From positions 29,806 through 93,805 of the forward strand of contig JAMWZW010000008.1 of assembly GCA_024281995.1 (NCBI GenBank): a stretch of 64,000 nucleotides of DNA, read 5' to 3'. Shown here piece after piece: positions 4,857 to 52,792 of the stretch. Below the pieces are notes generated by a model that worked only from the letters and a program-made list of their open reading frames with translations, searched no databases and had not been told where the DNA came from. Each line of letters starts with the position of its first letter. The first letter of the stretch is position 1. The position numbers were made by a program, and so were the translations under genes. The stretch is from Nitrosomonas sp. (GTDB lineage Bacteria > Pseudomonadota > Gammaproteobacteria > Burkholderiales > Nitrosomonadaceae).

Positions 4857-7800
4857 ATGACCAAGTTTGTGAACGGTGAGTTCTTGATTCAGTTTGCTAC
4901 GCATATGACCGAGATAGAGAAGGTCACTATATTACGCAAAAATGGTGCTGAATTTGTCGATGATTTTGCATCATCTCAACAAGAACCGATGCTCGCGAGA
5001 GTCAACAATCCAAAATCTCTTGAGAGAGTAATCGATAAACTGGCCAAGCTGCCTGGTGTCGAGTTTGTGCAACACAATTGGGTTATATCCAATCAAGTTA
5101 GCAGCGATGATCCGTTCTATACCAACGGTAATCTTTGGGGTATGTACGGCGATCAATCTTCTCCTGCGAATAGCTATGGCAGTCAAGCAGCCGAAGCATG
5201 GAACAGTGGATTTACCGGGACCACAAAAACCGTTGTGGGTGTCATCGATACAGGCATTGATTACACACATCCAGATCTCTATCTCAATATTTGGATTAAT
5301 CAAAAAGAAATCAGCGCTACCCTCAAATCTGCGTTAACTGATGTGGACCAGGATAGTGTTATCAGTTTTATCGATTTGAATCATGCGGCTAACGTGAGTT
5401 ATGTGAACGATCTTAATAATAATGGCCGTATCGATGCCGGCGATTTGCTAGCAGATTCCCGCTGGGAAGGCGGAGATGATTTGGATGGCAATGGTTATAT
5501 TGACGACATTGTCGGTTGGGATTTCGTTAACAACGACAACAATCCTTTTGATGATGTCGGTCATGGTACCCACGTTGCTGGCACGATTGGCGCTACGGGG
5601 GGTAATGGTGCCGGTGTTTCGGGGGTGAACTGGAATATCGGGATGGTGGCGCTCAAGGCGTTGGGTCCTTCAGGAGGGACTTCTTTATCGACAACAGCGG
5701 CAATCAATTATTATACCAATGCAAGCTTGGTTTCCGGTACCGGCCAGAATTTCGTGGCTACCAATAATTCCTGGGGTGGAGGTGGATATTCCCAGAGCAA
5801 TTTTGATGCCATTGTACGCTCGGCGCAGGCTGGTAGCTTATTTGTCGCCGCTGCCGGAAATAGTGGATTGAATACCGATAGTTATGCAAATTATCCCTCC
5901 AACATGAATACCACCGCAGCAGCCGGATTCGATGCAGTGATATCGGTCGCTGCATTAACCAGTTCTGGCACACTGGCTTCCTTTTCCAATTACGGAAAAT
6001 CAACAGTTGATCTAGCGGCACCTGGGCAAGGCATTTATTCAACTGTGCCAGGTGGTGGCTATGCTTCCTATCAAGGCACATCAATGGCTGCACCGCATGT
6101 TACTGGTGCTTTGGCATTGTATGCATCCGCGCTTCCGGATATAACGGCGCAGCAATTGCGTGAAGCGTTATTGAGTACAGTGGCGCCAACCAGTGCTTTA
6201 GCGACAACTACCGTAACCGGGGGACGTTTGGATATTGGCACACTGATTGCCGGCGCGCCTCCTCCTCCCGGTGTAATTATCATTGGCGGCAGCTATACCG
6301 GCACAACAGCTAACAATATCATGAATGCTGGGGCGGGAGACGATATTCTCTATGGTTTGGCCGGCAATGACACACTCAATGGTTTGGCTGGCAACGATAT
6401 ACTGGATGGCGGCGCGGGTAGTGACAAACTCTACGGTGGAGAGGGGTCTGATATATTTCTTGTACTATTGACGGCGGATCACGGAGCAGCGGAATTTTTC
6501 GATTATGGTACTTCGGGCACCGATGAAGTACGGTTTGCTGCAACTGTTAATAGCACGCTAAAAATATTTGCGGGCGATAGTGGCATCGAACGCGTGATAA
6601 TTGGTACCGGACTCGGAGCCAGTGCCAATGCATCCGCCACGACAGCACTAAATATTAATGCTGCTGCAGCGGCAAATGCGCTGACTATCATTGGAAACGC
6701 CGGTAATAATTCGCTCACTGGTACTGCCTATGTGGATCAATTGGATGGGGGCGATGGTTCGGATGTTTATGTCATCAATTCCGCAGCGCATCATTCGGCT
6801 CCGGAAATTACCGATACAGGTTCAATTGGCATTGATGAGGTTAGTTTTGCCGCCACTACGCCCAGCACCCTGACATTGTACGCCGGTGACAGCGGTATTG
6901 AGCGTGTTATTGCCAGTGGAACAGCAGCGCTTAATATTGATGCATCGGCAGCCGAAAACAGCCTTGCGATAATTGGAAATTCCGCATCGAATGTTCTGAT
7001 TGGCACAGCTTTTCCCGATACCATGAATGGTGGCAGCGGCGGGGATATTTATCTCATCAATTCGTCCGCTGAGCACAATCAGGCTGAAATTGCTGACAAT
7101 GGAACTAGCGGAATTGACGAGGTGCGCTTTACAGCTCAAACGGCTGGAACTTTAACACTGTTCGCCAGTGATACAGGGATCGAACAAGCTGTTATTGGAA
7201 CAGGCAGTGCAGTTGCAGCTAATACCAGCGGTACTACCACTCATAACATCGATGCTACCCTAGCACCAAAAGGTTTAACTATCATAGGCAATGCAGGCGC
7301 TAATATACTCAAAGGAAGCATATTTAATGACATATTGATTGGCAATGTCGGTGAAGATTCGCTGCTAGGTGGGGACGGGTCGGATATTTATGTCTTTGAA
7401 AATTCTGCTGACCAAACTGTAGCAGAAATTTCTGATAGCGGAATTACAGGGGTTGATGTTATACGCTATGCCGCTACAACCGCCGGCACACTTACTTTAT
7501 TTGCTGGCGATACCGGTATAGAACAAATCGTTATTGGCACCGGTGTCGGACCTGCGGCGGTTTCTACAGGCACCACAGCATTAAATGTTGATGCATCAGC
7601 ACTGACTGGTCCGTTACTACTCGCTGGAAATGCTGGTGCCAATACACTTCATGCTACGGCACAAGATGATATTCTGAATGGCGGTTCGGGTATTGATATT
7701 CTTGACGGAAACGAAGGATCGGATATTTACTTGATTGCTGCAGCCGCTGAGCATTCAGCTGCGGAAATTTCTGATAGCGGCACTGCTGGATTTGATGAAG

Positions 7801-36593: not shown

Positions 36594-37067
36594 TTATTTA
36601 ATTTCAGTATGTTTCAGTAATTTGGTTACGAGTTGATGAAAAACTTCTTTGGGATCCGGTTCGTGTTGAGCGGATGGATTGGATGCCATAGCATTTTGCT
36701 CAGCAGCAGCAATTTTTTCATCGGTAATATTGCGGCAAAAATCGCGGAAATTATTCCAATCCGTGTTGTATTCGAGTAAATTTTTTTGCGGGATAAAAAC
36801 ACGAAAAACCTCAAAATTTTGATACATTTCCGGCAGCCTGGCCGTAAGGTAATGGTTGATATTTTTTGGCCAGCGTTTATGCTGGGGGTACATGTCGGCC
36901 AATTCAATTTCGATCGTAGCACGAAAATTTTCGATGGCCATAGCACGGCGCTTACGATTAATAATATCCACCATAATGGCTACTATTCCTGCAAAACCCA
37001 ATAAGAAAAAAGGCCACAGCGGAACAGTTTCAAAATATCCTGAGATTTGATCAATATATTCGTTCAA
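36594..37067 (-). CDS. hypothetical protein with N-terminal TM anchor
   Basis: 157-aa ORF with one hydrophobic helix; divergent from the sigma-54 operon. Confidence 0.65.
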   Translation of the reverse strand: MNEYIDQISGYFETVPLWPFFLLGFAGIVAIMVDIINRKRRAMAIENFRATIEIELADMYPQHKRWPKNINHYLTARLPEMYQNFEVFRVFIPQKNLLEYNTDWNNFRDFCRNITDEKIAAAEQNAMASNPSAQHEPDPKEVFHQLVTKLLKHTEIK

Positions 37068-37509: not shown

Positions 37510-37524
37510 TGGCACGCGGCTTGC
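37510..37524 (+). promoter_or_regulatory. sigma-54 (RpoN) -24/-12 promoter
   Basis: TGGCACG-CGGC-TTGC, matching TGGCACG-N4-TTGC with exact GG-N10-GC spacing, about 110 nt upstream of the ATG at 37633. Confidence 0.9.
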
Positions 37525-37632: not shown

Positions 37633-38325
37633 ATGTATCAGAGCGAAAATACTTTTGAATTCAATCCGGAAATGAGTGGTTTTGAAGCCGAGCAATATGA
37701 AGGTGAACAGTATGAAGGCGAACAATTTGAGCAATTTGAATATGGCGAAGCGGAGTGGGGGGAAGTATTTAATGAAAGTGAGGTAATGGAACTCACTGCC
37801 GAACTTCTGGAAGTTACCAACGAAGCAGAACTCGACCGTTTTCTGGGTAAATTGATCAAGAAAGCCGGTAGTGCCTTAGGTAAAGTGGTGAAATCCCCCA
37901 TCGGTCAAGCAGTGGGTGGGGTACTCAAGGGCGTCGCCAAAAAAGCATTACCGATTGCTGGTGGTGCGCTGGGTGCTTATTTTGGCGGTCCTCTTGGCGC
38001 CAAGATCGGCAGTGGCTTGGCCTCCGCGGCGGGAAGTGCACTCGGACTTGAACTTGAAGCGCTTAACCAAGAAGATCGCGAATTTGAAGGCGGAAAACAA
38101 TTTGTGCGATTCGCCGCTAATACCGTGAAGAATGCCGTAGCAGCACCACCTGCCGCCAATCCTCGCAGCACCGCGCAAGTGGCTGCTAATAAAGCCGCAC
38201 AAGTCTATGCACCCAATTTATTAGGTTCAGGATCGACATCAACCATGCCATCAGCCATGCCAGGTAAAGGGCGCGGAGGCCGATGGTTCCGGCGTGGCCG
38301 CAACATCATCATTGTCAATTGCTAA
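37633..38325 (+). CDS. charge-segregated glycine-zipper protein 1 (unknown function)
   Basis: ATG at 37633 with GGAGGG RBS; EQYEG repeats, ELTAELLEV..EAELDRFLG, Lys-rich amphipathic and Gly-zipper core, C-terminal GRWFRRG. Confidence 0.85.
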   Translation: MYQSENTFEFNPEMSGFEAEQYEGEQYEGEQFEQFEYGEAEWGEVFNESEVMELTAELLEVTNEAELDRFLGKLIKKAGSALGKVVKSPIGQAVGGVLKGVAKKALPIAGGALGAYFGGPLGAKIGSGLASAAGSALGLELEALNQEDREFEGGKQFVRFAANTVKNAVAAPPAANPRSTAQVAANKAAQVYAPNLLGSGSTSTMPSAMPGKGRGGRWFRRGRNIIIVNC

Positions 38326-38361: not shown

Positions 38362-39063
38362 ATGCATGATATTGACCGTACACAACTGGAAAGCAACCCC
38401 GAGCTGGAAAATTATGAACATGAGCAATACGAGTTTGGAGAATACGGCGAATATGGTGAAACCGAATGGGGAGGCGAAACTGGTACTTTTAGCGAAGCGC
38501 AAGCGATGGAATTGGCCGCCGAGTTATTGGAAGTCAGCAGCGAAGAAGAGCTGGACCGGTTCCTGGGCAGTCTTATCAAGAAGGCTGGTCAAGTTGCCGG
38601 GAAGTTTATCAAATCCCCGGTAGGTCAGCAGCTTGGCGGCTTGTTGAAAGGCGCGGCCAAGCAAGCCTTGCCTATGGTGGGTAGTGCCATTGGTGGTTAT
38701 TTTGGCGGTGCGGGCGGTGCCAAAATCGGCAGCCAGGTGGCCTCTACCGCAGGGCGCATTTTTGGTCTGGAGCTGGAAGGACTGAGCCATGAGGATCAGG
38801 AATACGAAGCTGCCAAAAGCTTCGTTCAGTTTGCCGGAACAGCCGCAAAAAATGCAGCACTATCACCGCAGGCAGCCAATCCAAGGGCGGTTGCGCAATC
38901 CGCAGTTGCGGCAGCCGCCCGTCAACTTGCTCCAGGTCTCGTTCGCGGTGCTCCGGCTGCAGCGTTAGTTGCATCGGGCAGCGCGTGCCCTTCCTGCGGA
39001 CGGGGTGCCATGAGCGGCCGCTGGATGCGGCGCGGAAACAAAATCATACTATTTGGAGCTTAG
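38362..39063 (+). CDS. charge-segregated glycine-zipper protein 2 (paralog of protein 1)
   Basis: GGAG RBS; alignable with protein 1 throughout (ELAAELLEVSSEEELDRFLG, GLELEGL..EDQEYE, GRWMRRG). Confidence 0.88.
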   Translation: MHDIDRTQLESNPELENYEHEQYEFGEYGEYGETEWGGETGTFSEAQAMELAAELLEVSSEEELDRFLGSLIKKAGQVAGKFIKSPVGQQLGGLLKGAAKQALPMVGSAIGGYFGGAGGAKIGSQVASTAGRIFGLELEGLSHEDQEYEAAKSFVQFAGTAAKNAALSPQAANPRAVAQSAVAAAARQLAPGLVRGAPAAALVASGSACPSCGRGAMSGRWMRRGNKIILFGA

Positions 39064-39069
39064 CCTATC

Positions 39070-40431
39070 ATGGCTGCCACTTCTTACGCCACATGGATGC
39101 TCGAGCAGGAAGCTCGTGCTTTGCTGACCCGGTTGAAACGCGTCAAGCCTTTCGCTTTGCATGAAACCATGCTGCCAGCGGCATCGTTATTACCGGCAGC
39201 GCAAACCGGCATCGAGCGTTACTTGATGGAAGGGCGGCGAGAATTGAGAGGTATGATTCAACGTTACATTGCCTGGTTACGCGGACCATCCGGGCGTAGA
39301 GCCACGCCCGCCCATGCGCAGCGGCTATTCTCACTGCTGCGATTGAGATTCAATGCGGTACTGACACAATTTGATCTATTTAACGATGCACTCACGCAGC
39401 GCAGCGAAAATGAAATCGGTGTCTGGCTTTCCGGACTTGAAGTGGTGTCGGCTGATGCACTCACTATTCCGGGGCATTACTACGAGGTACCGCCAGTTAT
39501 CTGCTACCTCGATCGTGGTGTCGGCGCAGCGATCCGCCGTGCCAGAACACGATTGCCAGGCGGCGGTGAAAATCCGGTAGCGGTGATTCGTGTTCCGCGG
39601 GAACGTATGGTGGGCAGCGGTATCGCTTCTTCTCTGATCCATGAAGTGGGGCATCAGTCGGCTGCTCTGCTTAACCTGGTGAATTCCTTGCGGCCTGTTT
39701 TGCAGGGTATGCAACGAGGCAGTGGAGCCTATAGCAGTACTTGGGCATTGTGGGAACGGTGGATTTCGGAAATCGTCGCCGATTTTTGGTCTGTTGCCCG
39801 CATTGGCATTGCTTCAACGCTCGGGTTGATGGGCGTCGTTAGCTTGCCGCGCGCTTTTGTATTCCGCTTGAACCGGGATGATCCGCATCCGTCGCCGTGG
39901 ATACGCGTCAAGTTGAGTTGTGCGATCGGGCAAGCGCTTTATCCGCATCCGCAGTGGCAACGCCTGGCTCAATTATGGGAATCCTATTATCCGCTGGATG
40001 GATTGGAGGCCGCGCAACAGCAGAATTATCAGGCATTGCAAGCGACTTTACCTGGTTTTGTAGCGCTGCTGATTAATCACAGACCTGAAAGCCTGCGCGG
40101 GCGCAGCCTGGCTGAAGCCTTGCAGGTGCAAAACCGCCAGCCGCGTCGTCTTCAGGCATTGTTCCTAGCGTGGCGGCAGGAACCAGTGAAAATGTATCGC
40201 GCATCACCAGTACTGGCTTTTGCTGTGATCGGTCAAGCACGTGCCGACGGCCGCATGAGTCCGGAGCAGGAAAGCGCCATACTGGGAAAATTGCTCACCC
40301 ACTGGGCGTTGCGCAGTACCTTGGCAGTGTCCGCGGCCTGCTCAATGCAATCAGAACGGCCGAAGCCTTGGCTCACAAACTACTACCAACAAAATCGTTT
40401 TATTAACTATTCACTCAGGAGAATGACATGA
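39070..40431 (+). CDS. HEXXH (gluzincin-like) metallopeptidase-fold protein
   Basis: LIHEVGHQ followed about 40 aa later by WISEIVADFW (E-x-x-A-D third-ligand pattern); no signal peptide. Confidence 0.7.
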   Translation: MAATSYATWMLEQEARALLTRLKRVKPFALHETMLPAASLLPAAQTGIERYLMEGRRELRGMIQRYIAWLRGPSGRRATPAHAQRLFSLLRLRFNAVLTQFDLFNDALTQRSENEIGVWLSGLEVVSADALTIPGHYYEVPPVICYLDRGVGAAIRRARTRLPGGGENPVAVIRVPRERMVGSGIASSLIHEVGHQSAALLNLVNSLRPVLQGMQRGSGAYSSTWALWERWISEIVADFWSVARIGIASTLGLMGVVSLPRAFVFRLNRDDPHPSPWIRVKLSCAIGQALYPHPQWQRLAQLWESYYPLDGLEAAQQQNYQALQATLPGFVALLINHRPESLRGRSLAEALQVQNRQPRRLQALFLAWRQEPVKMYRASPVLAFAVIGQARADGRMSPEQESAILGKLLTHWALRSTLAVSAACSMQSERPKPWLTNYYQQNRFINYSLRRMT

Positions 40432-42596
40432 GTACAACTAGTCGAAGCCGAAAAGATGAAAAAAAGAAACCGGGAATCCTTAGAGTTAATTTATTCGCTG
40501 AATTTTCAGCTACAACGAGAGACCGAGAATTAAAAGGTGCTATCACCAACGCAGCAGTTATCGTCAAAACAAACATGTTTTCGAATAATAAAATTGTTGC
40601 TCAAGATGTGACTGGACAAGATGGATGGGTAGATATTCCTCTCGAATCGGGGGGGTATCGTATAGAGTTTCCTTCACTTCCCGATCAATGGCAGCCGCAG
40701 TCAGGGCATTTAAGTGTCACGGTTGACGATGCTAAATTTAATGAAACAGGACATATTGTCGAAGCGCGTCAGAGTGGACTGGCTCTGGATATACTTACTA
40801 CGGCAGGCGACGATTTTATGCCCAAGCCCAGCTTGAATATCACGCAAGGTAAAGGAATCTGGATAGTAGTCACTGTACCGAACTATTTGCCATCTGTAAT
40901 TCCCGATACCTCGATAAACAGAGGCTTTTTACAAAAAATTCAAAAATCCGAGCACAGGGATAATGTGAGCTATAAGGCTCAAGTAACAGATGTATCGGGT
41001 AGCGGTCCATTTGGTTTTTTTAGCAGAGTATTGCTTAGCGATGATCGTGATGGCCCAGCCGTTATTATGAACGACGAAGCTGTTATTGAAGAAAGTAAGC
41101 AAATTGTTGGTGGCCAAGTCAATACTACTACCTCATTAACACGTACTGAGACCTCTTTCACTGAAGACACGGCATTCTGGACGGCGATCCGCAATAATAC
41201 GGATGCGCTTTCATTCAATAATTATCTTAGTTTTATGAATTGGATCTTTTGCAACCAGTTACCTAAGAATTTGAGCGGTTTTGAAGATAAACGCTTTGGC
41301 AAAAAAAGAGAGGCCTTTGAAAGCGATGAAATAGGTTTATTGAATAAACGCTTTTTGCCTTTTACTGATTCAGATGCCTATCGTGTGATGAAGGCTGCGA
41401 CTGAGGCATTTGTCATGGTGAACTGTGGGGTGTTGAGCGAGGAATTACAGCCGTTTGACTTGGAGTTAGATAAAGCCTATCTCGATAGGAGAGATTTGCC
41501 GTTTCCACAGAACGGATTGAGTAGTGCTTTTAACGATAATTATCTGGTGGGCGTCGATGGCAATGGTAACGTATTGCCCTATCTCGCGGTTATTCGTCGG
41601 AAGTTACCCGATATCAAGATTAAGCTAACTCCTTTCGAAGAGGCGGCTCGAAGAAGTAGATCCAATGCAGTCGATGCGGACGAATGTTTTGGGCTGCTGC
41701 AAGAGAAACTCGCCAATCCTTGCTTGCTCGAGCTCATCTGGTCGTACTGGCACGAAGAAGGCATGTTGGTGCAAACAACTAACGCCATTACACGGCGGTT
41801 CCAGAATGTGCGTTCATCTGCACGTGATCCACTGGTTAACCTGGAAATGGATCCGCTACGGCCGCTCAATAATGTGCTTTGGGGTTATATCCAGGACGAG
41901 CAACATCGCTTGACCGTCAACCGGCGTAATTACGAGTACGATCACCATTACGGTCTCCATTTGGAAGGCAAAGCGGTGCAAAATTTTCGTCCCGCCGATA
42001 CGCGTTCAAAGTTCCTGGAAGCGTTTCATCATTTATTGCGTTTATGTAGCGTATTTTATAAGCAAGACGATGATACAACAATCAAGGCTGATGCTTTTCC
42101 AGTACTCAACGCCCTCAAGGAAATACACTTGATTCTGTCCCAAGGGGCGCACAATCAATTTGGCGATTTACCATCAACGGCTCGCATCGAAATGTTGATG
42201 CAGCAATGGTTGCTGGCTCGGCCGGAGTTCCGGGAATTGTTGCCGACGCGCATTATGGTGGCTTATCCCGAACCTTGGATGGATCGCGTTGACGCGATGA
42301 AAAAATTGCAAGGCTGGACCGATACCAGCGTATTGCATTTCCGCAACTTGGGCATGTTCGGTGAGCAACTTTTGCTTTCCATCCGTTGGGGTCATTGGAG
42401 CGACGAATTCGAGCCTGTCAAAGCGCTCAATTGGGCGCGGTTTTTCCGTCCGCAGGCTCAGGGCTACATTCATGCCTACCGTGCTGCAACCGGTGTTGAT
42501 CTATCGGTTGATTTGACTGCCAATGTGCCCGTGGATTCGACCTTGCCATCGGTATTGTTGCAAAAGCGCCTGGCAAGTCAGCAACGGGCGATGTGA
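40428..42596 (+). CDS. hypothetical protein (722 aa): beta-rich N-terminus plus helical His/Glu-rich C-terminal core
   Basis: Start overlaps the upstream stop (ATGA); long ORF with no recognised named family. Confidence 0.8.
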   Translation: MSTTSRSRKDEKKKPGILRVNLFAEFSATTRDRELKGAITNAAVIVKTNMFSNNKIVAQDVTGQDGWVDIPLESGGYRIEFPSLPDQWQPQSGHLSVTVDDAKFNETGHIVEARQSGLALDILTTAGDDFMPKPSLNITQGKGIWIVVTVPNYLPSVIPDTSINRGFLQKIQKSEHRDNVSYKAQVTDVSGSGPFGFFSRVLLSDDRDGPAVIMNDEAVIEESKQIVGGQVNTTTSLTRTETSFTEDTAFWTAIRNNTDALSFNNYLSFMNWIFCNQLPKNLSGFEDKRFGKKREAFESDEIGLLNKRFLPFTDSDAYRVMKAATEAFVMVNCGVLSEELQPFDLELDKAYLDRRDLPFPQNGLSSAFNDNYLVGVDGNGNVLPYLAVIRRKLPDIKIKLTPFEEAARRSRSNAVDADECFGLLQEKLANPCLLELIWSYWHEEGMLVQTTNAITRRFQNVRSSARDPLVNLEMDPLRPLNNVLWGYIQDEQHRLTVNRRNYEYDHHYGLHLEGKAVQNFRPADTRSKFLEAFHHLLRLCSVFYKQDDDTTIKADAFPVLNALKEIHLILSQGAHNQFGDLPSTARIEMLMQQWLLARPEFRELLPTRIMVAYPEPWMDRVDAMKKLQGWTDTSVLHFRNLGMFGEQLLLSIRWGHWSDEFEPVKALNWARFFRPQAQGYIHAYRAATGVDLSVDLTANVPVDSTLPSVLLQKRLASQQRAM

Positions 42597-43723
42597 GCTG
42601 CATGGCTATGATCAATTTCACCTCGGCGCTATATCTGGGACTGCATCATCCGAGCCAGTTTTTGCAACCCTGGCAACAACTTACACTGGGGGTGCCGGCT
42701 GCGCTTGAAGAACCGCCCGGGGCTGAGGAGGCGGCGGGAGGATTGGCACAGTTACAAGGGTGCGAGCACGGTGTGTTGTTGCCTTCCACGTTGCATCTAT
42801 TCTGGGATTTATTTGCCATGCTGCGCCAACAACCGGCAGCGTTGTTTCTGGATGAAGGAGCTTATGCGATTGCTCGCTGGGGAGCAGAGCAATTTAGTGC
42901 CAAAGGGGGTGATGTTTACACTTTCCGGCACCACGATCCTGAAGCGCTGCTGGTGCAAATCAAGCGGCATGCGCATCAAAGAAAATATCCCGTGGCAATT
43001 GCCGACGGCTTTTGTCCGGCGTGCGGTCATGCCGCACCAGTCGGAGAATATCTGGAAATTGTGAGACGTTTTGGTGGTTTACTGGTGTTGGATGATACCC
43101 AAGCTTTGGGAATTCTGGGTGAGTCGCCAGCGTTGCACAGTCCTTATGGCAAAGGCGGGGGCGGTATGTTGCGCTGGAGTGGAAACTTTGGACCGGACAT
43201 CGTGGTGGGCTCATCACTGGCAAAAGGTTTCGGCGTGCCGGTGGCGGCTCTTGCGGGCAGCAAAAAACTGGTCAAACGCTTTAAAATGGCCAGTGATACC
43301 CGGGTACATGGCAGTCCGCCGTCGGCGGCTGTTATTCACGCAGCCGCTCATGCGCTGACGGTGAACGAGATCCGAGGCAGTTTGCTGCGGCACAGATTGG
43401 CTCAGCGGGTTGTTCAATTTCGCAAAGGACTGGAAGCCATCGGCTGGGATTCCATCGGCGGCTGGTTTCCCGTTCAAACCTTGCGGGGAATCGTTGGAAA
43501 CGCCGCGGTCAAAATGCACCAATACCTTTCCCGGAACGGTATTCAGACAGTATTGTCACGGCCCCGCGATAACGGCGAGGCACACCTGAGTTTTTTAATT
43601 ACAGCGCGGCATAGCGCTGATGAAATTGATCATTGCATCGACATACTGAGCACATTGACGCATAGCATCGACAAGGCTGCAAATCGCAGCGGCAAGTCAG
43701 CGTATTCGGGCTTCATAAAATGA
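42593..43723 (+). CDS. divergent PLP-dependent alpha-oxoamine synthase-like (BioF/KBL/SPT fold) protein
   Basis: INFTSALYLGL, ADGF, LDDTQALG and SSLAKGFG (Schiff-base Lys); GTGA overlap with the upstream stop. Confidence 0.8.
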   Translation: MSCMAMINFTSALYLGLHHPSQFLQPWQQLTLGVPAALEEPPGAEEAAGGLAQLQGCEHGVLLPSTLHLFWDLFAMLRQQPAALFLDEGAYAIARWGAEQFSAKGGDVYTFRHHDPEALLVQIKRHAHQRKYPVAIADGFCPACGHAAPVGEYLEIVRRFGGLLVLDDTQALGILGESPALHSPYGKGGGGMLRWSGNFGPDIVVGSSLAKGFGVPVAALAGSKKLVKRFKMASDTRVHGSPPSAAVIHAAAHALTVNEIRGSLLRHRLAQRVVQFRKGLEAIGWDSIGGWFPVQTLRGIVGNAAVKMHQYLSRNGIQTVLSRPRDNGEAHLSFLITARHSADEIDHCIDILSTLTHSIDKAANRSGKSAYSGFIK

Positions 43724-43746: not shown

Positions 43747-46128
43747 ATGAATCAAGAACTGAACTTTGAAACCATACCGTTAGAACTCGCTCCTGAAATT
43801 ACGGGAGAAATGTTCGAGGTGGAAGGCGAGCGAGGAATCCGCCGCTCATTTGCAGGATCTAGAAACCGCAGTTTCCGGCCTGGCGTTCGTCCCGGTTTGA
43901 GACCAAAAGGAACCAAACGGCCGCCATTCTCGCGAACAAGACCTTTCGTAAAGGGGTCGCGGCGGCCGTTTGGAAGTGCTGTCTATGAACCTTATCCGAT
44001 TGCGAGCGAGCCCTATTCCAGTGAACCGGAACCATCCGGCTCAGAACGCACCCGCTGGGTACAGGATTGCTTGAATCAAACGGCGGGAACGCAACTTCCG
44101 GTGACTGGAATCATGGGGCGGGAGACACGCAGCGCCGTGCGGAATTTTCAGCGGCAGCAAGGGTTAAGAGCAAGCGGCATTGTCGGGCCGGATACCGAAG
44201 ATGCGTTGAAGGCGGCATGCACCGGACAAAATGCCGGGGAAAATTCTGAGCTTGAATCGTATATCAAAGAACCTGGTTTTATCGCGTGGTTAACCTGGCA
44301 ACCCAGTAATGAAAATCCGAAGTTATTTACCTGGGATGAAATCCAGAAGCGCGCGCGTGATCGGATTCACGGTGATGTCGGTGTTTATGTTGTTGTTCTA
44401 TTTGAACGAAGAACCATTGGCGGAAAAACCAAAAAAATAATCACCAAAATCCTGAAGGTAGGAAAGGCGATTGATGATTCCTTCAGGCAAAGACTAGAAC
44501 GCGAAGATCACCAAAAAATACGAGCAAAGTATCCGGGAAAAGTTGGATACTATCTGGCCAAAATACAAGCAAGCGGCGCATGTCCCATTCGTGGTTGCGG
44601 TACTGCAATAGAGCATTTGGTAACACGCACCTTGATTCGGGCGCGAAAAATGCTGCCTGAGCATCAGCGGCCTATTGTTCCTATCAAGGCACTCGAGCAA
44701 ATTCAGGTGGCCAACATTCTGCCGAAGCCTTTGGCAAAAAATCTTGGAAAAGCCTATGCTGCAGCCGGCCCCATGGATGTCCGGAAACAAAGAATAGGGC
44801 CAGTGGCAGCTCCAGCCAGCGGCTCCGGTAATTTGATACTGCCGAAGGATGCAATATGGGAACTGGAGTACCCCTTCAGCGAAGCCGAAGAACTGGAGCT
44901 CGCCGCCGAATTATTGGCCATTTCCAACGAAGAAGAGCTGGATCTATTTCTTGGCAAAATGTTCAAGGGAATCGGTAGAGGATTGAAGAAATTTGGCCGT
45001 TTCGTCGGCAAGAAAGTGCTACCCGCATTGGGTAAAGGTTTGAAGGCTATCGGCAAGGTTGCATTGCCGATTGTTGGCAAAGCGCTCGGATCTTTTATTC
45101 CCATACCGGGCGTTGGCACGGCTATCGGAGGGGCTATCGGAACAGCTGTCAGCAACGCGTTGGAGCTTGAATTCAGCGGCTTGCCTGCTGAAGAGGCAGA
45201 GCTGGAAATGGCGCGGCGTTTTGTGCGCATTGCCGCGACAGCAGCCAGACAAGCGGCTTTGGCCAATCCGCATGCCAATCCCGAAGCTATCGCCAATGCT
45301 GCTTTGATAGCAGCGGCTAAAATGCAAGTGCCGAATCTTCCTGTAGCGATTCAAAGAAATTCGGAACTAAACGGTGCGATTAATAATGAATGGCAGACCA
45401 ATAGCATTCAACCCGAACGATCCGATCAGGAAGCGTTTCTGGGCGATGTATGGAACTCCATTAGCACCGGAGCTCGTAAGCTCTCCAGTGGCGTTGCCAA
45501 TATGCTGACAGATTGTGCGCCCATTGAAGATCGCACAAGTTTTACGCCTAGAGATAAGCGCAAAGGGAAGCCGCGCGATATGAGTAAAGTATATGCGCTG
45601 GTGTTGCATCAGACTGCCGGCAATCAAAGGAATACGCCACCCAATCGGTATGACAGTGTCACTGCGCATTTTGTAATCAAGCCAAATGGACAAATACTGC
45701 AATTGCATCCATTGGCAGCTTACCTTAATGCCTCAAATGGGTTTAATGCTGGCAGTGTAGCCGTTGAATTTGCAGGTAATTATCCTGATGTAAAAGGTAA
45801 ACGGTACGTTTATCCGAATGGCGCATCGCCTCAAGGCATTCTGACTGCCGAACAGATCAAGGCTGGGCGCTGTTTAGTGCGTTACCTTGTTAAAAATATG
45901 GGCCTTACCCATATTGTGGCTCATCGGCAATCCAGTGCAACCCGTGCAAACGATCCGGGTCCGGATATTTGGTATCACGTAGGTCAATGGGCAATCAATA
46001 ATCTAGGTTTACGGGATGGTGGGCCAAGTTTTAAGGTTGGTAGCGGCAATCCCATACCGGATATTTGGCGGACGTGGGGAGAAACCAGACCACAACAGCC
46101 TGAACTTGGCGAGGAAATCTTTGCTTAG
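43747..46128 (+). CDS. multidomain protein: PG-binding domain + GIY-YIG-like region + third copy of the charge-segregated domain + N-acetylmuramoyl-L-alanine amidase
   Basis: WVQDCLN...FQRQQGL..SGIVGPDT (PG_binding_1); ELAAELLAISNEEELDLFLG; LVLHQT, TAHFVI, SVAVEF, IVAHRQ, DPG (Amidase_2). Confidence 0.8.
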   Translation: MNQELNFETIPLELAPEITGEMFEVEGERGIRRSFAGSRNRSFRPGVRPGLRPKGTKRPPFSRTRPFVKGSRRPFGSAVYEPYPIASEPYSSEPEPSGSERTRWVQDCLNQTAGTQLPVTGIMGRETRSAVRNFQRQQGLRASGIVGPDTEDALKAACTGQNAGENSELESYIKEPGFIAWLTWQPSNENPKLFTWDEIQKRARDRIHGDVGVYVVVLFERRTIGGKTKKIITKILKVGKAIDDSFRQRLEREDHQKIRAKYPGKVGYYLAKIQASGACPIRGCGTAIEHLVTRTLIRARKMLPEHQRPIVPIKALEQIQVANILPKPLAKNLGKAYAAAGPMDVRKQRIGPVAAPASGSGNLILPKDAIWELEYPFSEAEELELAAELLAISNEEELDLFLGKMFKGIGRGLKKFGRFVGKKVLPALGKGLKAIGKVALPIVGKALGSFIPIPGVGTAIGGAIGTAVSNALELEFSGLPAEEAELEMARRFVRIAATAARQAALANPHANPEAIANAALIAAAKMQVPNLPVAIQRNSELNGAINNEWQTNSIQPERSDQEAFLGDVWNSISTGARKLSSGVANMLTDCAPIEDRTSFTPRDKRKGKPRDMSKVYALVLHQTAGNQRNTPPNRYDSVTAHFVIKPNGQILQLHPLAAYLNASNGFNAGSVAVEFAGNYPDVKGKRYVYPNGASPQGILTAEQIKAGRCLVRYLVKNMGLTHIVAHRQSSATRANDPGPDIWYHVGQWAINNLGLRDGGPSFKVGSGNPIPDIWRTWGETRPQQPELGEEIFA

Positions 46129-48348: not shown

Positions 48349-49839
48349 ATGTTTGCCACTGCGGATGTGCCAATGAGATTTGCGAATCTATCGTTTGATC
48401 CAACCGCTTTGGCTAGCGCGTACAGCCGGAAACATCATGGTCGCTTTGTGGCGGAGCTGGGGGAGTTTATTCGCTTCCCGAGTATCAGTGCGCAGCCGCA
48501 GCATAAAGGCGATACGCAGCGTTGCGCGGCATGGTTGACTGATCATTTGAAAAAAATTGGCATGGAACGAGTAGCTGTGATTCCTACCAGCGGTCATCCC
48601 GTAGTTTATGCTGAGCACTGCCATGCAGCGGGAAAACCGATGGTGCTGATTTACGGCCACTATGATGTGCAACCGGCTGAGCCGCTGAGTGAATGGCGCT
48701 CGGCGCCGTTCGAGCCGGTGATCCGTGGAGACGATCTTTATGGCAGAGGCGCTTCGGATGATAAGGGGCAGCTTTTTACACATGTCAAGGCATTGGAAGC
48801 ATTGCTTCGAGGCGGTCAGGGGTTGCCCGTTAACATCAAGTGCCTGTTTGAGGGCGAAGAGGAAATAGGCAGCCCCAGTTTGCCTGATTTCATGATTGCC
48901 AACCGGCAGTTACTTGCTGCGGATTGTGCCGTGATATCGGATACGCAAATCCCGGCTGCCGGTCAACCTGCCATCACTTATGCCTTGCGAGGTTCAATCA
49001 ATTTTGAGCTGGAGATCACCGGGCAAAAGCGGGAACTACACTCGGGCGTGCTGGGCGGTGCCATTCATAATCCGCTGCAAGCGCTGTGTGAAATGATTGC
49101 GCAACTACATGATCAGGCTGGACGTATAGCTATTCCTGGTTTTTATGACCGTGTGCGGAGATGGGATATGAAGGAGCGTGCCTACATGAAAAGGGTTGGA
49201 CCGTCTGATGAAAAAATATTACAAGATGCTGGAGCGGCAATGGGTTGGGGGGAACGGAATTATTCATTGTATGAGCGTACTACAATCCGCCCTACTATCA
49301 CGGTAACCGCCATGCATGGCGGATATCAGGGTAGCGGTGTTAAAGCGGCTATCCCGACACACGCTGTGGCCAAACTGAACTTCCGTCTGGTACCAGACCA
49401 GGATCCGCAGGAAATTGATCGGTTATTCCGGGAATATGTCGAACAGATTACGCCTCCGGGTCTGCGGTTACGAGTTCGTACTTTTGCATCATCCCGGCCT
49501 GTACTGATAGGCCGCAGCCATCCTGCAGTAATGGCTGCGGCGCACGCCTATCGTCAGGGATTCGGGACAGCACCGGTATTTTTGCGCAATGGCGGCACGA
49601 TTCCGGTAGTTGGTCTGATTCAGGAAATTTTGCATCTGCCTGTTGTGTTGATGGGATTCGGTTTGCCAGATGACAGGATTCACGGATCGAATGAAAAATT
49701 TCATTTACCCAATTTTTTCAATGGCATTGAGACCAGCATCCGGTTTCTGACAGCAATGGGTCAGAGTCAGCATGCCAGTCTTGTCAGGCGGGATAACAGT
49801 CAGCAGATTCGTAACACAGGAACGTTTTGGGGGCCATGA
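48349..49839 (+). CDS. M20 family dipeptidase
   Basis: YGHYDVQP, GRGASDDKG, EGEEEIGS, IHGSNEK. Confidence 0.92.
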   Translation: MFATADVPMRFANLSFDPTALASAYSRKHHGRFVAELGEFIRFPSISAQPQHKGDTQRCAAWLTDHLKKIGMERVAVIPTSGHPVVYAEHCHAAGKPMVLIYGHYDVQPAEPLSEWRSAPFEPVIRGDDLYGRGASDDKGQLFTHVKALEALLRGGQGLPVNIKCLFEGEEEIGSPSLPDFMIANRQLLAADCAVISDTQIPAAGQPAITYALRGSINFELEITGQKRELHSGVLGGAIHNPLQALCEMIAQLHDQAGRIAIPGFYDRVRRWDMKERAYMKRVGPSDEKILQDAGAAMGWGERNYSLYERTTIRPTITVTAMHGGYQGSGVKAAIPTHAVAKLNFRLVPDQDPQEIDRLFREYVEQITPPGLRLRVRTFASSRPVLIGRSHPAVMAAAHAYRQGFGTAPVFLRNGGTIPVVGLIQEILHLPVVLMGFGLPDDRIHGSNEKFHLPNFFNGIETSIRFLTAMGQSQHASLVRRDNSQQIRNTGTFWGP

Positions 49840-50630
49840 TGATCATTGATTGCCACTGTCATGCCGGAAGCGGCGATGGGTTTACCGGACCCTGGGATAC
49901 GCGGGCGCCATTAGAGGATTATCTGCGCCGTGCCACTGCGGCAGGAATTCAGCGCAGTGTTTTATTTGCCGCATTTCATTCGGATTACGCTGCTGCCAAT
50001 AAAGAAGTGGCGAAAATTGTAGCTAGCCGGCCGGACAGGTTTTATGGATTTGCATTTGTGCATGCGGCCAGAGACCGCGGGCGGGTGCATAAATTGATCG
50101 AAACCGCTGTCAGACAATATGGATTTGCTGGGATCAAAGTGCATCGCCATGATGCGCCGATTACCCGGGAAATCTGTGATGCGGCGAGGGCTTTCGCTTT
50201 GCCGGTACTTTACGATGTGGTGGGAGAAGTATCGGTTTGTGAGTTGCTGGCGCAAGAATACCCGGATGTCAACTTCATTATTCCCCATTTAGGCAGTTTT
50301 GCCGACGATTGGCGTGCACAATTAGGTCTCATTGATCATTTGGTTCGTCATCCGAATATTTATGCGGATACCGCTGGTGTGCGGCGTTTCGATTTGCTGG
50401 AACAAGCGGTGAAACGCGCCGGAGCGGGCAAGATTTTGTTTGGTTCGGATGGGCCATGGCTTCATCCAGGCATTGAATTGGCAAAGATCAAGGCATTACG
50501 CCTTTCACCACAGCAAGAAAAATTGATTTTGGGAACTAATTTGCAGAAATTAATCCATTCTGCGCGACAGTATCGGCCATCCGCTTTATCCGGAAGGCAC
50601 AACACGGCGCCATTCGCTTTTTCCGAATAA
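49836..50630 (+). CDS. amidohydrolase family (Amidohydro_2) protein
   Basis: IDCHCH, GIKVH, IPHLG, ILFGSDGP; the ATG at 49836 overlaps the M20 stop (ATGA). Confidence 0.9.
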   Translation: MMIIDCHCHAGSGDGFTGPWDTRAPLEDYLRRATAAGIQRSVLFAAFHSDYAAANKEVAKIVASRPDRFYGFAFVHAARDRGRVHKLIETAVRQYGFAGIKVHRHDAPITREICDAARAFALPVLYDVVGEVSVCELLAQEYPDVNFIIPHLGSFADDWRAQLGLIDHLVRHPNIYADTAGVRRFDLLEQAVKRAGAGKILFGSDGPWLHPGIELAKIKALRLSPQQEKLILGTNLQKLIHSARQYRPSALSGRHNTAPFAFSE

Positions 50631-50655: not shown

Positions 50656-52053
50656 TCAATACTCGCTATTTTCCTGGCGTTGCGCTGCCCGGCGCAACTG
50701 TAAGGCACGGTCGGTTACGCCGAGACGTTGCGCGGCGCGTTGTAAATTGCCGTTTGCTTCGTCGACCGCGATACGAATGGCGGTTTCTTCGGTGTCTTTG
50801 CTGATAGTTTTGAGTCCCATGCCGCGGTTCAGCGCGATGCGGATTGCCCGCTCAAAACTCATGTCGCGCCATTCTTTCCAATCTTCAGATAAAACCGGCC
50901 GTTCATCCGGCGGAATACAGCCAACAGTAATAGGGCCTTCACCCGCATAGCGGCACAACATCCGCGCGATTACCTGCTTGAGGTCGCGTACATTGCCCGG
51001 GTATTGCCTGCGTAACAGATATTCTTGCACAGGCTTATCAATGGTGGGCACATTGTGGTTCGTGCAGTTTTTTTTTAGGAAATGATTGGCTAGAGGCAAA
51101 ATGTCTTCAGATCGTTCGCGCAGAGGTGGTAAGCGGCATATATAGCTGGCAATTCGGTAATAGAGATCGGCACGGAATTCGCCGCGTTGAACTTGTGCCA
51201 TGAGGTCGCGATTGGTGGCGCAAATTAATCGGAATGAGGTGCGTTGCCAGGCATTGCCGCCGACACGTTTGTAAGTTTGCTCTTGAATGACCCGTAAAAG
51301 CTGAGTTTGCATGGTCAAGGATAATTCGCCCACTTCGTCCAGAAAAAGCGTGCCGCCGTTTGCGAGCGCGAATACACCATCCCGTGAAGATGCAGCACCT
51401 GTAAATGCCCCCCGTTCATGACCGAAAAATTCACTGCCCGATAATTCCGGCACAATAGTCGTGCAATCCAGAATGACAAGCTCGCCCTTATCGGTGCGAT
51501 TGTCGAGCGAGTGTATGAGATTGGCCAGTAATTCCTTTCCTGTTCCGCTTTCGCCGAGAATTAATACCGATACGTTGGTAAAGCGCGCGACTTCGATCAC
51601 TTGGCGTAATATGGTTTGCAGTGTTTGGCTTGTACCAACCAATGCATTTTGAACAAGCGAAGAATTGAGTAACCGATTGATGGCTTCCCAGCGGCGCAGG
51701 CGGGCGGTGATTTCATGAATGATCAAATTATCTTTTGTGCAAACCAGTACATCAGACGCGCCCGCTTCCATTAATTGCCAGATGGCTTCTCCTGAAATCG
51801 CTTCGTGACAGCAGGCAAGGACTTGTATTTGACCGTTGTGGCTAAGTTCGCATAACTGTTCGCAGAGTTCCGGGGTTACTTTGTTGCTAAAGACGATACC
51901 GGAGTGACTGCAGGGAACGCGATAATCTTGTACTTTGATGCCCTGCTGGGTCAAGAGGTCGATGAATTTACAAATAGTTTTTTCCGAGTACTCTCCGACG
52001 CCGCGAATCCAGACAGTGGTAGGTTCAGATATATCATTAAAGAAAGTATCCAT
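50656..52053 (-). CDS. sigma-54-dependent transcriptional activator (bEBP) with degenerate receiver-like N-domain
   Basis: GESGTGKE, FFGHERGAFTGA, LFLDEVGE, FRADLYYRI and a Fis-type HTH; the ATG at 52053 is preferred (TTG at 52065 is an alternative). Confidence 0.93.
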   Translation of the reverse strand: MDTFFNDISEPTTVWIRGVGEYSEKTICKFIDLLTQQGIKVQDYRVPCSHSGIVFSNKVTPELCEQLCELSHNGQIQVLACCHEAISGEAIWQLMEAGASDVLVCTKDNLIIHEITARLRRWEAINRLLNSSLVQNALVGTSQTLQTILRQVIEVARFTNVSVLILGESGTGKELLANLIHSLDNRTDKGELVILDCTTIVPELSGSEFFGHERGAFTGAASSRDGVFALANGGTLFLDEVGELSLTMQTQLLRVIQEQTYKRVGGNAWQRTSFRLICATNRDLMAQVQRGEFRADLYYRIASYICRLPPLRERSEDILPLANHFLKKNCTNHNVPTIDKPVQEYLLRRQYPGNVRDLKQVIARMLCRYAGEGPITVGCIPPDERPVLSEDWKEWRDMSFERAIRIALNRGMGLKTISKDTEETAIRIAVDEANGNLQRAAQRLGVTDRALQLRRAAQRQENSEY

Positions 52054-52792
52054 AGTATTTAGCAACGAACTGATTGAATTACATCCACGAAGAATCCGGA
52101 AGGGCTCTTCTCATGTTTGATAATTGCTTGCAGTCAGTGTCGCTATACTTGGATTTTTTGATCAGCCGAATTACTTCTTATTAGTATTCAGCAGGTTGTT
52201 ATTGAAGTGTTGTTCAAGCAATTATTTTTTCATTGCATGGCGGTTAATTTCCATGCCTGCAATTTCATTCTAAAGTAAATTACCTTAATCTTGAATAAGA
52301 TTTATGTATTCTTTTAATTACTTCATGATTTCTATGATAGATATATTGGTTAATCCGGATTCTCACTAAGTAAGCAGCACTGATTGAATCTTACTTCGGC
52401 GCTCAATAGGAGGTGGTTTGAGCGCGTACGTTGCTATCTTATAAACTTAATGAAAGTCCGGTTTTAATCTGAATTGGCAACAAATCCCTATACTTGTGCT
52501 AGCGATATTTCCATTCATTGATAATAAAGTTATCACCGAATTGTTTAATTTGAAGTGAGATTAATCACATGTCCTGCAATTTTATGGCATCATCGTTAAA
52601 CAGTTGAAATTTGGACTATTAGAAAATCTATTACCAGTCAAAGTATTGTGGCGATCTGAAGTGGTTGTTCTTACATTTCATCTGATTCTTCTCATATTTG
52701 CATTGACCTGATATGGCTTATTGCGTTATTTTTACCCATTTTTATAATAGAGCCTTTGATGGGTTACAGTTTTTTATTGGTTGGCGATTTTT

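What the first reader, a model, noticed from the sequence alone, without database searches (positions are those of the whole stretch)
39070..40431. Cytoplasmic HEXXH protein directly after the two paralogs: candidate maturase
Seen: HEVGH plus a downstream EIVAD, no signal or TM segment, 6 nt after the protein 2 stop. Established: HEXXH...ExxAD is the gluzincin zinc-binding pattern, and some HEXXH domains in RiPP clusters are instead alpha-ketoglutarate/Fe hydroxylases. Inference: it cleaves or modifies the adjacent small proteins, for example at ELD|RFLG.
Basis: partly seen in the sequence, partly recalled or inferred. Interest (0 to 1): 0.62.

Follow-up and report, generated by a model that had tools for sequence, protein, structure and literature searches.

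The report
Hidden M48-like protease beside glycine-zipper genes
This gene encodes a very strongly conserved, unannotated enzyme that carries all three active-site motifs of the M48 zinc-protease family. It always sits directly behind self-masked glycine-zipper protein genes in a widespread sigma-54-switched cassette, so it is the best candidate for the enzyme that cuts those proteins.

Summary
ORF 39070-40431 is a real 453-aa gene under strong purifying selection (dN/dS about 0.06). It has HEVGH (residues 191-195) and EIVAD (234-238), no signal peptide, and starts 6 nt after the second glycine-zipper paralog.

No Pfam, NCBIfam, PADLOC, PHROG or PDB sequence model recognises it. Foldseek finds no relative for a confident AlphaFold model.

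New here: the protein also carries the published M48 'active-site plug' motif HPx4R (H273, P274, R279). The co-linear triple HExxH..ExxAD..HPx4R picks only six ORFs in this genome: its five Pfam M48 genes and this one. Shuffled ORFs give none.

356 of 370 full-length relatives keep the relaxed triple. The other 14 are frameshifted, partial or carry a deletion.

In 75 of 75 loci from many phyla a glycine-zipper gene lies directly upstream. In 71 of 71 the large orphan gene lies directly downstream.

Best reading: a latent, cytoplasmic, M48-like metallopeptidase that processes the adjacent proteins. The substrate and the cleavage site (ELD|RFLG) remain untested.

The alpha-KG/Fe HExxH alternative failed every sequence test. 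The scan has met this cassette before on other DNA.

The parts
37510..37524 (+). Consensus sigma-54 promoter TGGCACGCGGCTTGC ahead of the operon
   Evidence: One of only two zero-mismatch matches in the window, and the only one ahead of the operon (the other, at 6236, lies inside a long ORF). It sits about 110 nt upstream of P1.
37633..38325 (+). P1, a glycine-zipper protein with an acidic head (net -21 over residues 1-70)
38362..39063 (+). P2, a paralog of P1 and the presumed substrate. Its N-terminus MHDIDRT and its C-terminus GRWxRRGxxIILxGA are conserved across phyla
39055..39058 (+). GGAG ribosome-binding site for the HEXXH gene, inside the last P2 codons
39070..40431 (+). 453-aa HEXXH protein: a cytoplasmic, basic (pI 10.5) M48-like metallopeptidase candidate
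39397..39411 (+). QRSEN segment (Q110 and R111 invariant; E113 kept in at least 90% of A2 and invariant in A3), of unknown role
39496..39597 (+). Strand / Arg-rich loop / strand (VICYLDRGVGAAIRRARTRLPGGGENPVAVIRVP) ahead of the active-site helix. It is nearly invariant yet has low model confidence, and may be the substrate-binding edge or a flap
39640..39654 (+). HEVGH: two metal-binding His plus the catalytic Glu, on helix 183-200
39769..39783 (+). EIVAD: third metal ligand E234 and D238, on helix 219-245
39886..39906 (+). HPSPWIR: the M48-type HPx4R 'active-site plug' motif (H273, P274, R279 invariant)
40428..42596 (+). 722-aa orphan protein, translationally coupled by an ATGA overlap and always directly downstream
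42593..43723 (+). BioF-like PLP enzyme, a core cassette member
43747..46128 (+). 793-aa variable effector (PG_binding_1, P-like module, Amidase_2) and a possible second substrate
49827..50630 (+). Amidohydro_2 protein, a near-core cassette member
50656..52065 (-). Convergent sigma-54 enhancer-binding protein, the dedicated activator

Best explanation
The ORF encodes a soluble, cytoplasmic, metal-dependent peptidase of a family not yet in any model library. It carries the complete active-site signature of the M48 (HtpX/BepA/Ste24) gluzincins. H191 and H195 of HEVGH and E234 of EIVAD would bind zinc, and E192 would be the general base. H273-P274...R279 corresponds to the M48 HPx4R 'active-site plug', whose His occupies the fourth zinc position in BepA and keeps that enzyme latent until the plug moves. 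The gene is made from the same sigma-54 transcript as the glycine-zipper proteins and is translationally coupled to them. The enzyme therefore most likely binds those proteins, and perhaps the same module inside the larger effectors, and cleaves them. That would separate or trim the part that masks the cationic glycine-zipper segment. Shown: the motifs, their invariance, their specificity, the gene linkage and the selection. Inferred: metal binding, hydrolysis, latency, the identity of the substrate and the site of cleavage.
For: (1) Invariant residues in 33 relatives down to 31% identity are H191, G194, H195, E234, D238, H273, P274, P276 and R279; E192 is kept in at least 90%. (2) The published M48 definition is HExxH, a zinc-binding Glu, and HPx4R, with the pattern H-E-x-x-H-x(30,140)-H-P-x(4)-R (PMC7950410). 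The protein fits it, with 77 residues between H195 and H273. (3) Specificity: among 4206 six-frame ORFs of this genome, the triple HExxH..ExxAD..HPx4R hits six. These are the five PF01435 genes plus this one, and shuffles give 0.0. In 5391 ORFs of 82 loci from other genomes, all 82 hits are family members. (4) 356 of 370 full-length relatives keep the relaxed triple (ExxxD allowed). The other 14 are frameshifted, partial or carry a deletion. (5) hhalign of the core against M48 aligns the strand-loop-strand and the HExxH helix at probability 40%. (6) The AlphaFold model (pLDDT 87, pTM 0.87) has two strands followed by the HExxH helix and a later Glu helix, and no membrane span. (7) Linkage: a P-like gene lies directly upstream in 75 of 75 loci, the gap is 5-6 nt in 51 of 74, and the 722-aa gene lies directly downstream in 71 of 71. 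The minimal Bacteroidota cassettes keep the P-like gene(s), HEXXH, the large orphan, the PLP enzyme and the activator, but carry no lysins. (8) dN/dS is 0.056-0.08. (9) Precedent: neighbouring proteases license small auto-inhibited pore formers such as EACC1, Pepco and gasdermin (PMC12642450).
Against: The Pfam PF01435 model does not score the protein or 32 relatives even at E<=5. A profile search of PDB sequences finds no peptidase. Foldseek finds no zincin and nothing at E<=0.001, either for the whole model or for the excised core. hhalign probabilities are at most 40% and do not bring the ExxAD and HPx4R motifs into register, because the spacing is shorter than in M48. No coordinates were available, so the geometry of the proposed ligands was not measured. 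Nothing shows cleavage of P1/P2. Both termini of the P-like proteins are conserved, so the acidic head is not merely a disposable mask.
Confidence: 0.45

Rival explanations
1. It is the same M48-like peptidase, but it acts in self-protection or quality control. Like HtpX or BepA, it would degrade glycine-zipper proteins that misfold or insert prematurely into the producer's own membrane, rather than activating them.
For: Characterised M48 enzymes are mostly quality-control or trimming proteases of membrane-associated substrates (PMC7950410). The gene order and coupling fit this reading equally well. No immunity gene is evident in the cassette.
Against: The protein has no membrane anchor, whereas HtpX-type quality control acts at the membrane. 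A pure safety device would be expected to be lost in some lineages, yet it is present in every cassette examined.
Confidence: 0.15
2. It is an M48-like peptidase whose target is not P1/P2. The target would be another protein: the 722-aa neighbour, the module-bearing effectors, or a host protein, as with the Lit peptidase of prophage e14.
For: The gene is coupled as tightly to the 722-aa gene (ATGA overlap; 71 of 71 loci). The P-like module with the ELDxFLG motif also sits inside the 793-aa effector. PMC7950410 notes that Lit shares HExxH plus HPx4R. The protein is strongly basic (pI 10.5, 47 Arg).
Against: Minimal cassettes lack the module-bearing effectors yet keep the enzyme. The basic charge is not universal in the family (net -3 to +43). 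Nothing links it to a host target.
Confidence: 0.17
3. It is a non-hydrolytic HExxH enzyme: an Fe(II)/alpha-ketoglutarate oxygenase that hydroxylates or oxidatively cleaves the adjacent proteins, as the RiPP enzymes ChlH, BpmH and PflC do.
For: Such enzymes exist, have a zincin-like fold and act on a neighbouring precursor (PMC12636437). H191, H195 and E234 could in principle form a 2-His-1-carboxylate site. Several invariant Arg residues could bind a keto-acid.
Against: TIGR04267 gives no match in the protein scan or in the six-frame search of the whole genome. hhalign against six family members gives probability 0.1%. Their downstream signature (R..PR, then DGIxHA) is absent, and the M48 motifs ExxAD and HPx4R are present instead.
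Confidence: 0.08
4. It is a non-catalytic scaffold or chaperone that merely holds the glycine-zipper proteins, with the HExxH site a relic.
For: No activity has been shown. The protein has large helical N- and C-terminal regions of unknown role.
Against: The catalytic triple is kept in 356 of 370 relatives across phyla, and every exception is an assembly or frame artefact or a single deletion. A relic site would decay.
Confidence: 0.05

Closest known systems
Peptidase family M48 (HtpX, BepA, LoiP, YcaL, Ste24/ZMPSTE24, Oma1; Pfam PF01435)
   Same: The three signature motifs occur in the same order: HExxH, the Glu ligand in ExxAD, and the HPx4R active-site plug. A strand-loop-strand precedes the active-site helix. 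In this genome the triple motif is found only in the five M48 genes and this protein.
   Different: The Pfam model does not recognise it. The spacing is shorter (38 and 34 residues between motifs, against roughly 60 to 75 and about 45 in the M48 sequences compared). It is soluble and cytoplasmic, with no membrane segments, signal peptide or TPR domain. It has about 130 N-terminal and about 120 C-terminal helical residues with no counterpart. Foldseek finds no match to solved M48 structures.
Lit peptidase of prophage e14 (MEROPS U49)
   Same: According to PMC7950410, it is a non-M48-annotated protein with HExxH plus HPx4R. It is an intracellular protease belonging to a cell-death or conflict device.
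   Different: No sequence similarity was detected; no Pfam model of any kind matched at E<=0.1. Lit acts on a host translation factor and is not coupled to glycine-zipper genes. Its sequence was not compared directly here.
Thermolysin/neprilysin-type gluzincins (clan MA(E))
   Same: HExxH followed by ExxxD, with a further conserved His downstream.
   Different: There is no fold or sequence match. The downstream His lies in an HPx4R context typical of M48, not of thermolysin.
Alpha-KG-dependent HExxH enzymes of RiPP pathways (IPR026337 / TIGR04267; ChlH, BpmH, PflC/PosC)
   Same: An HExxH protein encoded next to the ribosomal product it acts on. PflC can also hydrolyse a peptide bond (PMC12636437).
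   Different: There is no model match, hhalign gives probability 0.1%, and the downstream motifs differ.
Protease-licensed pore formers (bacterial gasdermin, EACC1, Pepco; PMC12642450)
   Same: The functional logic matches: a small auto-inhibited membrane-active protein is encoded next to a dedicated protease.
   Different: Those systems use Cys or Ser proteases fused to phage sensors. Here the protease is a metalloprotease with no recognisable sensor domain, and the gate is transcriptional (sigma-54 plus its own activator). No PADLOC model matches any core protein.

Membership tests
Peptidase M48 (PF01435) | HExxH on the active-site helix, with both His as zinc ligands | tested here: met
   HEVGH at 191-195 lies on predicted helix 183-200. 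H191 and H195 are invariant and E192 is kept in at least 90%.
Peptidase M48 (PF01435) | Third zinc ligand Glu in an ExxAD motif on a later helix | tested here: met
   E234-I-V-A-D238 lies on helix 219-245. E234 and D238 are invariant, and the same motif is invariant in the 14 M48 sequences aligned here.
Peptidase M48 (PF01435) | HPx4R active-site plug; pattern H-E-x-x-H-x(30,140)-H-P-x(4)-R (PMC7950410) | tested here: met
   H273-P274-SPWI-R279 lies 77 residues after H195, and all three residues are invariant. The triple motif is specific: six hits in 4206 ORFs, namely five M48 genes plus this one, with 0.0 in shuffles.
Peptidase M48 (PF01435) | Score above the Pfam gathering threshold | tested here: not met
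   PF01435 gives no hit for the protein at E<=0.1, nor for 33 family members at E<=5.
Peptidase M48 (PF01435) | Profile-profile similarity | tested here: inconclusive
   hhalign of the family core against 14 M48 sequences gives probability 40% and pairwise E of 3e-4, covering the strand-loop-strand and the HExxH helix only. Against single subfamilies the probability is 1-21%.
Peptidase M48 (PF01435) | Fold similarity to solved M48 structures | tested here: not met
   Foldseek against the PDB, with the full model (pLDDT 87) and with the core of residues 135-310 (pLDDT 81), lists no zincin among the top 50 matches shown for each search and nothing at E<=0.001. Foldseek can miss remote, rearranged helical domains.
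Peptidase M48 (PF01435) | Zinc binding and peptide-bond hydrolysis | not testable with these tools
   Needs purified protein.
Alpha-KG-dependent HExxH hydroxylases (TIGR04267 / IPR026337) | Match to the family model | tested here: not met
   There is no hit at E<=0.1. The six-frame search of this genome gives no match, while five other genomes of the class score 44-120 bits.
Alpha-KG-dependent HExxH hydroxylases (TIGR04267 / IPR026337) | Downstream signature after HExxH (SPxRxxPR, then PxDGIxHA) | tested here: not met
   The alignment of six members shows these motifs, and the window protein has ExxAD and HPx4R instead. hhalign probability is 0.1%.
Alpha-KG-dependent HExxH hydroxylases (TIGR04267 / IPR026337) | Fe(II) and alpha-KG dependence | not testable with these tools
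   Needs an enzyme assay.
Peptidase M78 (ImmA/IrrE; PF06114) | Model match or profile similarity | tested here: not met
   Pfam gives no hit. hhalign against 13 members gives probability 0.05-0.1%.
Pro-protein maturase of the adjacent gene product (functional class) | Obligate genomic coupling to the presumed substrate | tested here: met
   A P-like gene is directly upstream in 75 of 75 loci with upstream DNA. The gap is 5-6 nt in 51 of 74. The coupling also holds in Bacteroidota.
Pro-protein maturase of the adjacent gene product (functional class) | Enzyme-dependent change in mass of the substrate | not testable with these tools
   Needs co-expression and mass spectrometry.

The most novel reading that the evidence does not exclude
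The enzyme is the licensing step of a previously undescribed protease-activated membrane-attack device. A latent, plug-regulated M48-type metalloprotease, produced only when a dedicated sigma-54 activator fires, would cut the self-masked glycine-zipper proteins and free their cationic zipper. This would be a metalloprotease / glycine-zipper counterpart of the caspase-gasdermin and protease-EACC1 pairs. It is present in at least 559 species of more than ten phyla and absent from all defence and toxin catalogues.
Probability: 0.3. Interest if true: 0.85.

Novelty: new variant of a known kind. Interest (0 to 1): 0.62.

Why it matters
The family has more than 5800 clusters at 90% identity and is about 65-72% identical across Proteobacteria, Nitrospirota, Chloroflexota, Acidobacteriota, Verrucomicrobiota and Planctomycetota. 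Yet it has no name, no domain model and no solved relative. It is the most conserved enzyme of a widespread sigma-54 cassette whose purpose is unknown.

Recognising the full M48 signature gives that cassette its first concrete, testable biochemical handle. It names an active-site base to kill (E192) and a plug His whose removal should deregulate the enzyme, as H246N does in BepA. It also names an obvious substrate to weigh by mass spectrometry. If confirmed, it extends the M48 family into soluble cytoplasmic enzymes. It would also add a metalloprotease example to the emerging rule that bacteria arm pore formers by proteolysis.

Tried and rejected
1. Family scans. Pfam, NCBIfam, PADLOC and PHROGs gave nothing for this protein. 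A Pfam scan of 33 relatives at E<=5 gave only scattered single hits: Zn_peptidase at E 0.08 and DUF1570 at E 0.24, one member each.

2. PDB by sequence and by profile: nothing relevant.

3. Foldseek of the whole model against the PDB and BFVD, and of an excised core model against the PDB: no match at E<=0.001 and no zincin listed. Model coordinates are not exposed, so ligand distances could not be measured.

4. hhalign against alpha-KG-HExxH and M78 sets built from genome searches: probability 0.1%.

5. Long 'fusion' proteins (P-like+HEXXH, HEXXH+722-aa) among the representatives were examined as Rosetta-stone evidence. They cover each partner only in part and look like gene calls across frameshifts, so they were not used.

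6. Charge complementarity (enzyme net +21, P1 head -21) was considered as evidence for binding. The enzyme's charge ranges from -3 to +43 in the family, so it is not a reliable argument.

8. Literature searches found no description of the family or the cassette.
Full report
**The observation**

The ORF at 39070-40431 (+) encodes 453 aa. An in-frame stop lies two codons upstream of its ATG. The P2 gene ends at 39063, and six bases (CCTATC) separate it from the ATG. A GGAG sits inside the last P2 codons. The stop overlaps the start of the 722-aa gene (ATGA).

HEVGH is at residues 191-195 and EIVAD at 234-238. There is no N-terminal hydrophobic segment. The most hydrophobic 19-residue window (mean 1.6, residues 247-265) is folded as two short helices in a globular AlphaFold model. 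HExxH arises in 0.9% of shuffles of the protein, and its conservation puts it far beyond chance (see below). dN/dS is 0.056 against a relative with dS of 0.32, and 0.06-0.08 against relatives with dS of 1.3-1.9.

**The setting**

A perfect sigma-54 promoter (37510-37524) precedes ten co-oriented genes:
- P1 and P2
- this gene
- a 722-aa orphan
- a BioF-like PLP enzyme
- a 793-aa PG_binding/Amidase_2 protein carrying a P-like module
- a 192-aa protein
- an M23 peptidase, an M20 peptidase and an Amidohydro_2 protein

A convergent sigma-54 activator closes the block.

I examined 80 of these loci, from Nitrosomonas, Methylococcales, Nitrospira, Burkholderiales, Chloroflexi, anammox Planctomycetota, Acidobacteriota, Verrucomicrobiota and Methylomirabilis.

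The order in those loci is fixed:
1. one to three P-like genes
2. HEXXH
3. the large orphan
4. the BioF-like gene
5. variable genes, often with a P-like module
6. Amidohydro_2
7. a sigma-54 activator, convergent with the operon in nearly all of these loci

Every one of 75 loci with upstream DNA has a P-like gene directly upstream. Every one of 71 with downstream DNA has the orphan directly downstream. The P-like stop to HEXXH start gap is 5-6 nt in 51 of 74 loci.

Two Bacteroidota contigs carry minimal cassettes with no cell-wall enzymes:
- P-like, HEXXH, 556-aa protein, BioF-like, activator
- two P-like genes, HEXXH, 765-aa protein, 375-aa protein, Amidohydro_2, activator

The lysins are therefore cargo. 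The enzyme belongs to the invariant core together with the glycine-zipper protein.

**The family**

The word-indexed search gave 5809 clusters at E<=0.001, all named 'hypothetical'. Identity stays at 65-72% across phyla. An exhaustive HMMER search of 50%-identity representatives gave 1026 hits, with full-length members down to 31% identity.

Across 33 such sequences the invariant residues are Q110, R111, G122, R157, P176, H191, G194, H195, E234, D238, G246, G252, H273, P274, P276 and R279. E192 is missing only from a frameshifted row.

No Pfam, NCBIfam, PADLOC or PHROG model matches. No PDB sequence matches either, even with a family profile.

**Structure**

With a 60-sequence alignment, AlphaFold2 gave pLDDT 87.2 and pTM 0.87. 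The model has these parts:
- an N-terminal helical region (residues 6-131)
- two strands (143-148, 171-176) flanking the nearly invariant Arg-rich loop DRGxGAAIRRARTRLPGGxxNP, which has low confidence
- the HExxH helix (183-200)
- a connecting helix, then the Glu helix (219-245)
- a loop carrying DPHP (271-274)
- further helices to about residue 430

Strand(s), then the HExxH helix, then a later Glu helix is the order expected of a gluzincin. However, Foldseek against the PDB and BFVD returned nothing at E<=0.001 and no zincin among the listed matches. That held for the whole model and for a separately predicted core of residues 135-310 (pLDDT 80.6). Coordinates are not exposed, so I could not measure whether H191, H195 and E234 converge.

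**The M48 signature**

I aligned 14 M48 domains fetched from this genome and its relatives. Their invariant blocks are NAFA, HExxH, SRxxExxAD and HPxxxxRI.

The window family's invariant blocks in the same region are GAAIRRA (between two strands), HEVGH, SEIxAD and HPxPWIRV. They are in the same order and include HP-x4-R.

Bryant et al. (PMC7950410) describe this motif in BepA. H136, H140 and E201 bind zinc, and H246 of the conserved HPX4R 'active-site plug' is the fourth ligand. The plug must move for activity. They propose H-E-x-x-H-x(30,140)-H-P-x(4)-R as a family pattern. The window protein fits it, with a gap of 77 residues.

I tested the specificity:
- Among all 4206 stop-to-stop ORFs of at least 100 aa in this 2.88-Mb genome, 78 have HExxH.
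- Seven fit the two-motif pattern.
- Six fit HExxH..ExxAD..HPx4R. These six are exactly the five PF01435 genes found by the genome search plus this protein.
- Five rounds of shuffling gave 0.4 and 0.0 hits per genome for the two-motif and triple patterns.

In 5391 ORFs from 82 loci of other genomes, all 82 hits are members of this family. The other 14 are frameshifted or partial gene calls, or carry an 8-residue deletion on a short metagenome contig.

Profile-profile comparison is only suggestive. hhalign of the core against the M48 set gives probability 40%. It aligns the strand, NAFA/GAA loop, strand and HExxH helix. It does not bring ExxAD and HPx4R into register, because the family's spacers (38 and 34 residues) are much shorter.

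I therefore do not file the protein as a Pfam-M48 member. I call it M48-like. It is either a very divergent branch or a convergent active site.

**The alpha-KG/Fe alternative**

Alpha-KG-dependent HExxH enzymes of RiPP pathways (IPR026337/TIGR04267) have a zincin-like fold and act on neighbouring precursors. One of them can also hydrolyse (PMC12636437).

TIGR04267 does not match the protein or anything in this genome. It scores 44-120 bits in five other genomes of the class. hhalign against six of those domains gives probability 0.1%. Their conserved downstream motifs (R..PR, DGIxHA) are absent here. M78 (ImmA/IrrE) also fails. A 2-His-1-carboxylate iron site cannot be excluded from sequence alone, so I keep this rival at a low probability.

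**How it most likely works**

Shown here:
- a constrained gene with an invariant M48-type site
- no export signal
- obligate coupling to the glycine-zipper genes, all under one sigma-54 promoter

Inferred: when the activator fires, enzyme and substrate are made together. The enzyme is latent through H273 on the metal, as in BepA. Binding of the P-like protein may involve the conserved Arg-rich strand-loop-strand and the conserved ends of the substrate. This binding would displace the plug, and a peptide bond would be cut.

The substrate's architecture suggests what cutting would achieve. It has a head of net charge -19 to -21, then the nearly invariant helix ELxxELLxVxxExELDxFLG, a cationic glycine zipper, and a conserved GRWxRRGxxIIL tail. 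Cutting would separate a mask from a membrane-active segment. That is the logic established for gasdermin, EACC1 and Pepco (PMC12642450).

The motif is shared by the module inside the 793-aa effector and could equally be a docking or folding element. The N-terminal MHDIDRT is conserved from Nitrosomonas to Bacteroidota, so the head is more than a spacer.

**Relation to earlier scan notes**

The scan has met this cassette on other DNA. One follow-up (e1-4270712) called the HExxH protein a probable new zinc protease of thermolysin/neprilysin type. My independent analysis agrees on the gluzincin reading and refines it to an M48-type signature with the HPx4R plug. Notes that read the cassette as a lysis device (e1-4270708, e1-1090972) are tempered by the lysin-free minimal cassettes found here.

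**Limits**

There is no biochemical evidence.

My confidence that the protein is an M48-like metal hydrolase is about 0.7. My confidence that it processes the adjacent proteins as a maturase is about 0.45.

Noticed in passing
L128:8294-14479 and L129:7366-16218: Bacteroidota versions of the cassette are minimal. They hold one or two P-like genes, HEXXH, a 556- or 765-aa orphan, a BioF-like gene, optionally Amidohydro_2, and a convergent sigma-54 activator. There are no cell-wall hydrolases, so the lysins seen in Nitrosomonas are accessory cargo.
   Followed up: partly
window 38362-38382 (P2 residues 1-7), L128:8294, L129:7366: The very N-terminus of the P-like protein next to the enzyme, MHDIDRT, is conserved from Nitrosomonas to Bacteroidota: 40 of 73 are identical and most others differ by one residue. 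The C-terminus I[IV]L[YF]G[AV] is conserved too. An N-terminal tip this conserved is unexpected for a disposable acidic mask.
   Followed up: partly
window 39514-39579 (residues 149-170): The loop DRGVGAAIRRARTRLPGGGENP is almost invariant across phyla, yet it is the lowest-confidence part of an otherwise confident model (pLDDT 46-64). It looks like a flexible Arg-rich flap that orders on binding a partner.
   Followed up: no
window 40428-41100 versus 41100-42596: In most loci only the C-terminal two-thirds or so of the 722-aa orphan is alignable (tblastn hits typically start 700-900 nt after the HEXXH stop). Its N-terminal region is therefore variable or exchangeable.
   Followed up: no
protein P0035 (metagenome contig of 2.5 kb): One otherwise 79%-identical relative has an 8-residue deletion that removes GHQAAALL, including the second His of HExxH. 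It is either an assembly error or a rare inactivated copy.
   Followed up: no
window 36594-37067 (-): The 157-aa ORF just upstream of the promoter, on the opposite strand, is found only next to the cassette in the four closest Nitrosomonas loci. It is not part of the conserved cassette.
   Followed up: no
window 50656-52065 (-): The cassette's activator matches the PADLOC RtcR_PspF2 CARF_AAA_HTH model over its AAA+ and HTH part only (residues 136-456, E 4e-90). The N-terminal sensor part is not covered.
   Followed up: no
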